A program made the position numbers. Positions 7,216-10,200 of a stretch of 10,741 nt of DNA are shown in pieces (the first letter of the stretch is position 1; each line of letters begins with the position of its first letter). Source of the stretch: a virus (taxonomy: Duplodnaviria; Heunggongvirae; Uroviricota; Caudoviricetes); IMG/VR virus record IMGVR_UViG_2537561620_000013, positions 1 through 10,741 of that record. One strand, given 5' to 3'.

Positions 7216-10200
7216 TAAAAATAAAAATAAAAAATAAAAATAAAAAATTAGAGATTGAGTTTTCTCGTGGTTTTCCATATTGATTTTTTTATAAGTAGAG
7301 AATAACCAATAAATGCAATAGCACTTGGCCACAGATAGTTGAATGATCCTGTTATCCAAATCGCGGCATTGAAAAAAACATCGCTTGGCATCATAACAAT
7401 CAGTAATAATGACATGATTGAAGTGTTTATTTTATAGTAAAGGTTGTTTTTTCTCTGAAAGATAGAGCAAATGCCAATAATTAATGATGAAAACATTGCT
7501 GCATTAATTAAAGACCAAGCATAAAAATGATTAATAAGATTTATTAATGCATATTCAATCTATGTTCGTGATGACCATGTGAAATATCTATCTATGAGCC
7601 ACTTGATGTGATCCGGTTCTGATATTGATTTCTCGGAAAACCAAATGTCATCTGATACTAGTGTATATTGATTTAAATGAAGAATAGTTAAACCAATAAA
7701 AAAAGCAAAAGAAAGCATATGTAATTTGATTTAATCATTTCTTATCCTTAATAATATATTTAGGTCTATTTTTTACTTCAATATATATTCTGCCTATATA
7801 TTCTCCGAGAACACCAATCCCGATCAGTTGCACGCCACCCAAGAAAAGTATTGATACAAGCAGGGAGGGATACCCGCGTACTGGGTTACCAAAGACAAGG
7901 GTGTCTATAATCATCCATGCACCATATAAAAACGAAATGCTTGCAACAAACAAGCCTATATAAGTCCATACGCGAAGAGGAAAGGTTGAAAAACTTGTGA
8001 TACCTTCCAGTGCCAGATTCCATAATTTCCAGCCATTAAATTTTGAGATGCCAGCAACACGCTCTGCGCGTACATATTCAACGACATCTGTCTGACCACC
8101 CACCCAGCTCAGTATGCCTTTCATGAAAAGATTGCGCTCAGGCAACAGTTTAATGTTCTCCACAACCTCACGAGACATGAGTCGAAAATCTCCGACATTT
8201 TCCTCGATCTTTGGAGTGCTTATTTTGTTGTGTAACTTATAGAACCACTCAGCTGTCTTACGTTTCAGTCGTCCATCAGTTGAGCGGTCTGAACGTTTAG
8301 CAAGCACCATGTCAGCACCAGCCTGCCACTTTTCAATAAGATGAGGGATAACCTCAATAGGGTCTTGCAGGTCGACATCAATAGGAATTACAGCATCGCC
8401 GCTTGCATGGTCTAACCCTGCAAATAAGGCTGGTTCTTTACCAAAGTTGCGTGTAAATGACAGCGGAACAACTAGCGGGTCTGAAACAGCCAGCGCGTTA
8501 ATAATTGACTCTGTGGCATCTTTACTTCCGTCATTTATGAATACAATTTCTACTTCATATGGCTTCAACTCTTGGAATTCACGTACCGTCTTATAGAAAA
8601 CAGGTATCGCTTCTTCTTCATTGAAGACAGGAACGACAAGAGATATTTTCATTTCGCATCCCTAAAAACAATGAACTTTGAATAGACGAAACCGCACACC
8701 AGACTGATGGCGGAGAAGGTGATAAGAGTAACTATTGGAGGAAGTGAGCATTTATCAGCAGCCCAACCAACAATCGCACTCAATATTCCCATGAATCCCA
8801 CGTATAACATGTAGCGTATCGCTGTAGTCGATGCTTTGAATGTGAATCTTGCATTCGCGAAGAAGCTAAAGCTCACAGCTACTACGAAACCTGTGAAGTT
8901 TGCCAGGGCCTGACTGGTATGCGCGGCATAGATACATACACCAAAAACTACCCAGTGTATAAGTGTATTCAGCACACCTATAGATGTGTACTTTACAAAT
9001 AACTTTAACATTTATTTAATCAATGAGTTCTGAAAGTCATGAAGTCTATCATCCAAGTCTCAATTGATCGATATTTGCTGTGTCTGATGAGACAAAACTG
9101 AGACACATAAGGCCTCGCAATGGCTTGCAAGGCTTTACATGTTTTGATTTAGTGGGACGTGTGAGCGCAGTGTTGATGGGGTAATGCTTTGAATTAGAAG
9201 CGGATTCTTATAATTCGTAATGCGAAGGTCGTAGGTTCGACTCCTATTATCGGCACCATTTAAATCAATAAGTTACACATCATTAGTACCTTCCTTATTT
9301 CTTGACTGGGACAAATTTGGGACCGATGGGTTCAGAATCGAGTCTATTTGCCGTGCGTGTTCGGTAAGGTGATTAGGTGCGAGGTGAGCATATCGACGAA
9401 CCATTTCGATAGACTCCCAGCCTCCCATTTCCTGTAACACTGATAACGGGACTCCGGCTTGAACCAGCCAACTTGCCCAGGTGTGTCTCAAGTCGTGAAA
9501 TCTGAAATCATCAATACCAGCCCGTCTCAGCGCCGCTTTCCAGGCTGTGTTTGCGTCATACCGCATCTTCCTTACTGTTGGCGCTTTCGTTCCGTCTGGT
9601 TTGGTACAGCTTTCCTTGTACACAAATACCCAACGGTGATGATTTCCGATTTGTTTTTTCAAAACGCGACATGCAGTATCATTCAGCGCAACGCCGATTG
9701 CGCGGTTTGATTTACTCTCTTTGAGGTGTACTGGCAATAGCGGACACTACCATTTGTTCTTTTTAAGCAGCCATCTGATGATATTTTTCCCTGAAGGCTG
9801 CCGGGGAGATATTCCCCAGACGAGAGTGACGACGCTGACGATTGTAGAAAATCTCAATGTATTCCCGTATTACTGAGATGGCTTCATCCCGGTTATTAAA
9901 ACGATAGTGGCTCAGGCTCTCATTTTTCAGCGTTCCCCAGAAGCTTTCCATCGGAGCGTTGTCGTAACAGTTACCTTTACGCGACATTGATGTTTTCAGA
10001 CCAAACTGCTCCTGTATGACCCGGTAATCGTATGCGCAGTACTGTGAACCTCGATCAGAGTGGTGGATTAGCCCGGCAGGTGGGCGCTGGCTCCTGAGCG
10101 CCATAAACAGGGCTTTACCTGTCAGCTCTTTTGTCATGCGCTCTCCCATGGCGTAGCCGACAATTTCGCACGTATAAACATCTTTGATGCCAGCGAGGTA

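What the first reader, a model, noticed from the sequence alone, without database searches (positions are those of the whole stretch)
9012..9272. att core is flanked by phage genes on both sides (gtrA on one side, int on the other): attP-like arrangement inside an otherwise decayed element
In an integrated P22/SfV/SfII-type prophage the gtr cassette and int sit at opposite prophage ends, separated by the whole genome, and one junction carries an intact tRNA-Thr. Here the 46-nt tRNA-Thr 3' core (9213-9258) has the int 3' end 15 nt to its right and gtrA about 200 nt to its left, with no tRNA 5' half. So this copy is not sitting in thrW as a simple attL or attR: it could be an excised circular or episomal form, a tandem prophage junction, an element placed by another route (the adjacent IS is a candidate), or a phage-derived contig.
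Basis: partly seen in the sequence, partly recalled or inferred. Interest (0 to 1): 0.55.

Follow-up and report, generated by a model that had tools for sequence, protein, structure and literature searches.

The report
Tandem-prophage attP-like junction in Shigella
The 261-base stretch is the well-known attachment site (attP) of Shigella O-antigen-converting phages, here most likely the seam between two prophages stacked at the thrW tRNA gene; it is real but ordinary.

Summary
Window 9012-9272 is the 261-bp gtrA-int intergenic region of SfI/SfII/SfIV/SfV-type phages. Its 46-nt core (9213-9258) is identical to the 3' end of thrW. There is no tRNA 5' half, and there is phage DNA on both sides: gtrA 201 nt to the left, the int stop 14 nt to the right. 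The window is a whole 10,741-bp draft contig of Shigella flexneri K-1770. The int is cut to its last ~148 codons by IS600 at 9721/9722, and the contig ends inside that IS.

The comparison that matters: the same int'::IS600 joint, with the same core and right arm, lies directly beside intact thrW-proA in other S. flexneri genomes, as a plain attL. Elsewhere it is joined to this phage type's left arm plus gtrA, or to the left arm of an Sf6/P22-like podovirus. So the right half is most likely a resident remnant, beside which later thrW-targeting phages integrated. The window's "attP" is then the internal junction of a tandem array.

Tandem SfI-SfX integration is published, and E. coli ET201 shows a full tandem dimer with such a junction. 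An excised circle, a misassembly and IS-mediated placement are less likely, but none is excluded for K-1770 itself. This is known biology of low interest.

The parts
9012..9272 (+). Complete attP-type site (261-bp gtrA-int intergenic region) of SfI/SfII/SfIV/SfV-type serotype-converting phages
   Evidence: Collinear with SfII KC736978 and AF021347 (attP annotated there) through both arms. Same length and core as published for SfI (PMC3636060).
9012..9212 (+). P arm (gtrA-proximal arm). On the - strand it contains a terminator-like hairpin at about 9100-9133, downstream of int and upstream of gtrA.
   Evidence: Identical in layout to the attR arm of integrated E. coli copies and to the phage records. 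Hairpins found; SfII annotates a putative rho-independent terminator at the equivalent place.
9213..9258 (+). 46-nt att core, equal to the 3' 46 nt of tRNA-Thr(CGU) thrW; no tRNA 5' half is present
   Evidence: exact, unique. (no tRNA).
9259..9272 (+). Start of the P' arm (it continues into the int 3' end)
   Evidence: Matches the phage records and the attL of S. flexneri SFBU1023 (L039) and L032, but not the E. coli attR host flank.
9273..9721 (-). 3' fragment of the tyrosine integrase gene (about 148 of 387 codons), dead
   Evidence: Pfam Phage_integrase, profile positions 57-171 only. Alignment to the intact int of SfII and L026 stops at 9721.
9722..10741 (-). IS600 (partial, runs off the contig end); orfB at 9763-10581
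   Evidence: 99.4% identical to IS600 copies annotated in E. coli genomes. Pfam rve/HTH_21. The joint ...CTCTCTT|TGAGGTGTACTGGC is read directly.
8649..9011 (-). gtrA (intact, 120 aa)
   Evidence: Pfam GtrA_DPMS_TM. 98.3% aa identity to E. coli copies.
7735..8652 (-). gtrB (intact, 305 aa)
   Evidence: Pfam Glycos_transf_2. Identical protein present in many E. coli prophages.
6453..7738 (-). Type-specific gtrC of the DUF6056 / GT_STM0557_N kind, now a pseudogene
   Evidence: Split into ORFs of 136, 79 and 82 aa. A 47-bp insertion and three 1-bp deletions relative to the intact 413-aa E. coli gene.
4686..5735 (-). Intact acyltransferase-3 gene, homologue of SfII_25 (probable oacD)
   Evidence: 98% aa identity to SfII_25. 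Pfam Acyl_transf_3. SfII is reported to carry oacD (PMC8973906).
1..3913 (+). Mu-like baseplate and tail-fibre module of the left-hand prophage, partly frameshifted
   Evidence: Matches SfII/SfI/SfV tail genes at 96-98%. 11-bp insertion in baseplate V.

Best explanation
The 261-bp interval is a sequence-complete attP (P arm, 46-nt thrW-derived core, P' arm) of the SfI/SfII/SfIV/SfV phage group. In this S. flexneri K-1770 contig it is most likely the internal junction of two prophages stacked at thrW. An older prophage sat at thrW with its int already, or later, split by IS600; its attL was thrW-core-P'-int'. A second thrW-targeting, gtr-carrying myovirus then integrated by Int-mediated attP x att recombination at that same core. 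That step places the newcomer's gtrA and P arm directly against the older element's P' arm and int fragment. The joint therefore reads as attP, and serves as attR of the left element and attL of the right one. Both elements have since decayed, so the site is now a recombination scar with no active partner encoded in the window. What is shown: the identity and anatomy of the site, the IS600 truncation, the decay, the recurrence of the same right half with different left partners, and that tandem arrays produce such junctions. What is inferred: that K-1770 itself carries thrW-int upstream of this contig and remnant DNA beyond the IS600.
For: (1) Both arms are phage DNA and the core equals the thrW 3' end. 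(2) The identical int'::IS600 joint, with identical core and P' arm, lies directly next to intact thrW-proA in L032, L033, L038 and the complete S. flexneri SFBU1023 chromosome (L039). In L039, IS600 is followed by the int 5' part and xis, so it is a simple insertion in a thrW prophage. (3) The same right half is joined to three other left partners: the SfII-type P arm plus gtrA (window, L019, L036); a longer, different P arm plus gtrABC of an Sf6/P22-like podovirus (L034, L035); and that same arm with yet another upstream sequence (L037). (4) All IS600-bearing int fragments share five alleles that set them apart from intact phage ints, including the intact ints found next to the P22-type arm (L206, L216). 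The L034/L035 junction is therefore demonstrably hybrid. (5) The only one of 5,426 complete E. coli genomes with P arm-core-int contiguous, ET201, is a full tandem: proA-thrW-int-copy A-attP-like junction-int-copy B-attR. (6) Literature: SfI integrates at the attL of resident SfX, giving tandem prophages between proA and yaiC (PMC3306764). An int plus attP upstream of gtrA was reported in a serotype 4a chromosome (cited in PMC3851460). (7) The same join is present in independent draft assemblies, including L020, which is 99.5% identical to the window over 4778-9443.
Against: The contig ends inside IS600 on the right and inside a tail gene on the left, so neither thrW-int upstream nor the remnant downstream was seen for K-1770. 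The window's int fragment carries two alleles (9663A, 9696G, 25-58 bp from the IS600 joint) that are absent from the other IS600-bearing copies. It is 100% identical over 8640-9721 to contigs with an intact int next to the same attP and gtrA (L025, L026). Both arms could therefore come from one phage. That would require either a short gene-conversion patch or an independent or transferred IS600 insertion at the same nucleotide.
Confidence: 0.66

Rival explanations
1. A single phage genome with a genuine attP (both arms from the same phage) entered or moved within the chromosome without using attP. One route would be RecA-mediated recombination between its IS600 copy and one of the many chromosomal IS600 copies, or another IS600-mediated rearrangement. 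This would leave attP intact inside the element.
For: The window is 100% identical over 8640-9721 to contigs carrying an intact int, attP and the same gtrA (L025, L026), so a single-phage origin of both arms is possible. IS600 abuts the int fragment, and the contig ends in it.
Against: It needs an IS600 insertion at exactly the nucleotide and orientation seen in thrW-linked remnants of other strains. That requires either an independent hot-spot hit or transfer with a crossover within 25 bp of the joint. An int-dead phage would also need helper functions to circularise from a prophage. No example of such a placement was found.
Confidence: 0.14
2. Assembly chimera. K-1770 has one prophage with attL (thrW-core-int'::IS600) and attR (gtrA-core-host), and the 2012 draft assembler joined the wrong arms across the 46-57-bp repeat.
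For: A single prophage of the L039 type plus a misjoin at the core would yield exactly this contig. The assembly is an old short-contig draft.
Against: The same join occurs in independent assemblies of the same lineage (L020) and of other lineages (L019, L036, L021, L022, L025, L026), made years apart. A 46-bp repeat is shorter than typical reads. The hybrid L034/L035 junctions lie inside 40-kb predicted prophage regions.
Confidence: 0.08
3. The contig represents excised circular or episomal phage DNA (a true attP regenerated by excision) present in the sequenced culture.
For: The arrangement equals that of the circular or virion genome records of SfII, SfI and SfV.
Against: The int lacks its first ~239 codons. 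Baseplate V carries an 11-bp insertion and gtrC several frameshifts. The element therefore cannot excise on its own, replicate lytically or form particles. The IS600-truncated int is shared with chromosomal attL remnants.
Confidence: 0.05

Closest known systems
attP of Shigella flexneri serotype-converting phages SfI, SfII, SfIV and SfV (same core as SfX and Salmonella P22)
   Same: 261-bp gtrA-int intergenic region. Identical 46-nt core derived from thrW. Same order gtrC-gtrB-gtrA-attP-int. 97-98% nucleotide identity to SfII through both arms.
   Different: Here the int is cut by IS600, gtrC is a DUF6056-type pseudogene rather than gtrI/II/IV/V, and the site lies in a bacterial draft contig, not a phage genome.
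Internal junction of tandem SfI-SfX prophages at thrW (serotype 1d; Sun et al. 2011, PMC3306764)
   Same: A second thrW-targeting gtr phage integrated at the attL of a resident one, placing one phage's gtrA against the other's int across an att core.
   Different: In the published case both prophages were intact and lab-generated or recent. Here both partners are decayed, the right one is an IS600-truncated remnant, and the tandem context is inferred rather than seen.
Tandem prophage dimer at thrW in E. coli ET201 (NZ_CP100994.1)
   Same: P arm-core-int contiguous inside a chromosome, between two prophage copies bounded by thrW-attL and attR.
   Different: There are two copies of the same phage with intact ints, and other cargo in place of gtr.
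Simple attL/attR of integrated gtr prophages at thrW (E. coli AR_0061 attR; S. flexneri SFBU1023 attL)
   Same: Same core. Each shares one arm with the window.
   Different: Each has host DNA on the other arm (the tRNA 5' half, or the downstream host flank), whereas the window has phage DNA on both.

Membership tests
attP of SfI/SfII/SfIV/SfV-type (P22-core) phages | 46-nt core identical to the 3' end of thrW | tested here: met
   46/46 identity to K-12 thrW and to the published core.
attP of SfI/SfII/SfIV/SfV-type (P22-core) phages | Lies between the gtrA start and the int 3' end, with both P and P' arms of phage origin | tested here: met
   Collinear with SfII KC736978 and AF021347 over 8990-9721; the interval is 261 bp.
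attP of SfI/SfII/SfIV/SfV-type (P22-core) phages | Recombines with attB under Int/IHF (functional site) | not testable with these tools
   Needs an integration or excision assay. The cognate int in the window is truncated.
Simple attL at thrW | Intact tRNA-Thr (5' half plus core) next to int | tested here: not met
   No tRNA by ARAGORN. Rfam tRNA reaches 14.2 bits against a cut-off of 29. The upstream 30 nt do not align to thrW.
Simple attR at thrW | Host flank immediately after the core | tested here: not met
   E. coli attR copies diverge from the window within about 15-30 nt after the core, whereas the window continues as int.
Internal junction of tandem prophages | The two arms belong to different integrated elements | tested here: inconclusive
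   The same int'::IS600 right half occurs with thrW and with two different phage P arms in other genomes. However, the window's own int alleles equal those of an intact int linked to the same P arm (L025, L026).
Internal junction of tandem prophages | thrW-attL upstream and attR downstream in the same chromosome | not testable with these tools
   The window is a whole 10.7-kb draft contig, and other K-1770 contigs could not be retrieved. This feature was seen in full only in E. coli ET201.
Free or excised phage genome | A genome able to excise, replicate and package | tested here: not met
   Int is reduced to about 148 codons. There are frame-disrupting insertions in baseplate V and gtrC.

The most novel reading that the evidence does not exclude
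The IS600-crippled integrase remnant at thrW may act as a long-lived landing pad in S. flexneri. Successive, unrelated serotype-converting phages (myovirus and podovirus types) stack against it. The sequence-complete internal attP could stay recombinogenic for Int/Xis supplied in trans. That would allow precise excision, swapping or capture of O-antigen modification cassettes from defective prophages.
Probability: 0.12. Interest if true: 0.4.

Novelty: already known. Interest (0 to 1): 0.15.

Why it matters
The site itself adds nothing new, since both attP and tandem integration at thrW are published. The practical points are three. First, an attP-type join in a bacterial assembly should not be read as evidence of an active or episomal phage. 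Second, gtrA-attP-int' joints mark stacked serotype-converting prophages, which matters for inferring S. flexneri serotype history from draft genomes. Third, in this strain the glucosylation gene is dead while the neighbouring oacD-like acetyltransferase is intact.

Tried and rejected
- **gtrB and gtrA look-ups.** Exact-protein look-ups did not return the source contig, because its GenBank annotation lacks those calls. The acyltransferase look-up did return it.
- **Int fragment product.** A guessed 97-aa ATG-start product of the int fragment is not on record.
- **Paper not held.** Adhikari et al. 1999 (PMC103612) is not in the library. My recollection that it describes an unusual chromosomal gtr organisation was therefore not used.
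- **Intact thrW scan.** It could not show whether the 40-kb viral contigs L034/L035 begin with thrW-int.
- **Full-length int search.** The int-based locus search gave mostly plain attL loci. It did give L206 and L216 as intact-int comparators.
- **L017 as a possible shared truncation.** L017 looks like a S. flexneri 2a-type chromosome. It seemed at first to share the truncation point, but its int continues about 75 nt further and is cut by a deletion instead. It was rejected as the same event.
- **Contig ends within int'.** I considered reading the ends of other drafts' contigs within int' as evidence of a second int copy. The positions do not fit a simple de Bruijn-graph expectation, so this was not used.
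- **Rfam scan.** The scan of 8900-9500 gave only sub-threshold noise.
- **Promoter scan.** No sigma-70-like promoter was found upstream of gtrA.

Full report
**What is in the sequence.** The 46-nt string at 9213-9258 is unique in the window, and no shuffle reproduces it. It equals the last 46 nt of E. coli K-12 thrW. The bases to its left do not align with the tRNA 5' half. ARAGORN finds no tRNA in the window, and the Rfam tRNA model scores 14.2 bits against a threshold of 29. To the left, gtrA (8649-9011, minus strand, Pfam GtrA_DPMS_TM) starts 201 nt from the core. To the right, an integrase ORF fragment ends at 9273, which is 14 nt from the core, and matches only the C-terminal part of the Phage_integrase profile.

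**Where the window comes from.** An exact-protein look-up with the acyltransferase returned a contig of exactly 10,741 bp: AKMX01000020.1 of assembly GCA_000268245.1, which is the window reversed. A published strain table lists that assembly as Shigella flexneri K-1770, from Bangladesh (PMC6397287). The window is thus a whole draft contig, and nothing beyond its ends is joined to it in that assembly.

**Gene layout.**
- Bases 1-3913 carry Mu-like baseplate and tail-fibre genes.
- An intact acyltransferase lies at 4686-5735. It is 98% identical to SfII_25. The SfII prophage is reported to carry oacD (PMC8973906).
- A DUF6056-type gtrC lies at about 6453-7738, followed by gtrB and gtrA, the 261-bp interval, the int fragment at 9273-9721, and IS600 from 9722 to the end.
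- Against intact E. coli copies, the window has an 11-bp insertion in baseplate V. It also has a 47-bp insertion and three 1-bp deletions in gtrC. Some single-base indels could be errors of a 2012 draft; the longer ones are not.

**What the 261 bp is.** The window is collinear with phage genomes SfII, SfI, SfV and SfIV from base 1 to 9721, at 95-98% identity. The alignment runs unbroken through gtrA, the intergenic region and int in two SfII records, one of which annotates attP here. Integrated E. coli prophages share the left arm and core but diverge into host sequence just after the core, which is attR. The SfI paper reports a 261-bp gtrA-int region with exactly this 46-base core, split between the prophage ends in a lysogen (PMC3636060). 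The interval is therefore a sequence-complete attP.

**Why an attP sits in a bacterial contig.** The int stops at ...CTCTCTT|TGAGGTGTACTGGC, the end of IS600. Searching for that joint found it in two complete chromosomes and five IMG/VR prophage regions. A near-identical partial integrase also led to a Logan contig. The same int'::IS600, core and right arm are joined on the left to four different things:
1. The thrW 5' half and proA, which is a plain attL (L032, L033, L038, L039). In S. flexneri SFBU1023 (L039) the IS600 is followed by the int 5' part and xis, so it is a simple insertion in a thrW prophage.
2. The SfII-type left arm and gtrA (window, L019, L036).
3. A longer, different left arm with gtrABC (L034, L035). 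The phage upstream of it matches Sf6/P22-like podoviruses.
4. That same longer arm with yet another upstream sequence (L037).

All IS600-bearing int fragments share five alleles that distinguish them from intact phage ints. Those intact ints include the ones linked to the P22-type arm (L206, L216). The L034/L035 junction is therefore a hybrid: the left arm comes from one phage and the right arm from a resident remnant.

**Precedent and a complete example.** Sequential infection puts SfI at the attL of resident SfX, giving tandem prophages between proA and yaiC (PMC3306764). An int gene and attP site upstream of gtrA in a serotype 4a strain's DNA are cited in PMC3851460. Among 5,426 complete E. 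coli genomes, only ET201 has left arm, core and int contiguous. Its full context is proA-thrW-int-prophage copy-junction-int-second copy-attR-ykfI.

**Best reading.** A later gtr-carrying myovirus integrated at the core of a thrW-resident prophage. The window's attP is the seam between the two: attR of the left element and attL of the right one. Both elements have since decayed. I put this at about 0.66.

**Caveats.**
- Neither end of the array was seen for K-1770.
- The window's int fragment differs from the other IS600-bearing copies at 9663 and 9696, which are 25-58 bp from the IS joint.
- The window is 100% identical over 8640-9721 to contigs that have an intact int next to the same attP and gtrA (L025, L026). 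A short conversion patch from the newcomer's own int would explain this. So would a single-phage origin of both arms, combined with an independently acquired IS600 at the same nucleotide.

**Rivals.**
- IS600-mediated or homology-mediated placement of a phage with an intact attP fits the L025/L026 identity, but it needs the coincident IS600 site (about 0.14).
- Misassembly across the 46-bp core would produce this exact contig from a single prophage. However, the same join recurs in independent assemblies, including L020 of the same lineage (about 0.08).
- An excised circle is unlikely, because the element lacks most of int and has broken structural genes (about 0.05).

**Comparison with known systems and novelty.** The site passes every sequence-level test for the SfI/II/IV/V attP and fails the tests for a simple attL or attR. 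Membership in 'tandem junction' is supported by comparison but is not demonstrated for this strain. Nothing here departs from published biology, so novelty is 'already known' and interest is low. The most novel reading left open is that the IS600-crippled remnant serves as a recurrent landing pad whose internal attP stays usable by Int supplied in trans.

**Decisive tests.** Junction-spanning read counts or a long-read assembly of K-1770, and sequence across this IS600 copy.

Noticed in passing
window 9721/9722; L032, L033, L038, L039, L034-L037: One IS600 insertion at the same nucleotide and orientation in the thrW-phage integrase is shared by many S. flexneri genomes. In the complete SFBU1023 chromosome it is a simple insertion (int 3'-IS600-int 5'-xis). 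In L034 the int 5' part and xis beyond the IS are deleted.
   Followed up: yes
window 9663 and 9696: Two alleles close to the IS600 joint set the window apart from all other IS600-bearing int fragments. They match intact ints (L025, L026, L206). This suggests a short gene-conversion patch or a separate history.
   Followed up: partly
window 4686-5735 (-): The acyltransferase-3 gene is intact and 98% identical to SfII_25 (probable oacD, GlcNAc 6-O-acetylation), while the adjacent gtrC is dead. O-acetylation may have been retained while glucosylation was lost.
   Followed up: partly
window 6453-7738 (-): The type-specific glucosyltransferase is of the DUF6056 / GT_STM0557_N kind found intact in E. 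coli prophages, not gtrI/II/IV/V/X. Here it carries a 47-bp insertion near 7189 and 1-bp deletions near 6850, 7283 and 7697.
   Followed up: partly
window 1-810: Baseplate V is split by an 11-bp insertion near 441, and there are 1-bp indels at 10 and 222. The contig's left end lies inside a gpP-like baseplate gene with no IS sequence, which may mean a second copy of the tail module exists in the genome.
   Followed up: no
E. coli ET201 NZ_CP100994.1, about 3,564,000-3,644,300 (L005, L239, L240): A tandem dimer of a ~40-kb prophage at thrW. Both copies carry the same IS1 insertion, and the junction between them is attP-like. The assembly has many frameshifts, so it may be error-prone long-read data.
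   Followed up: yes
L037 (IMGVR_UViG_2850784384_000009) 862-5389: The P22-type left arm is joined to the same int'::IS600, but with different upstream DNA, an inverted IS600 copy 2.2 kb away, and a ~770-bp insertion inside the IS600.
   Followed up: no
window 9100-9133 (-): A terminator-like hairpin lies inside the P arm, between the int stop and the gtrA start. It matches the putative rho-independent terminator annotated in SfII. No sigma-70-like promoter was detected upstream of gtrA.
   Followed up: partly
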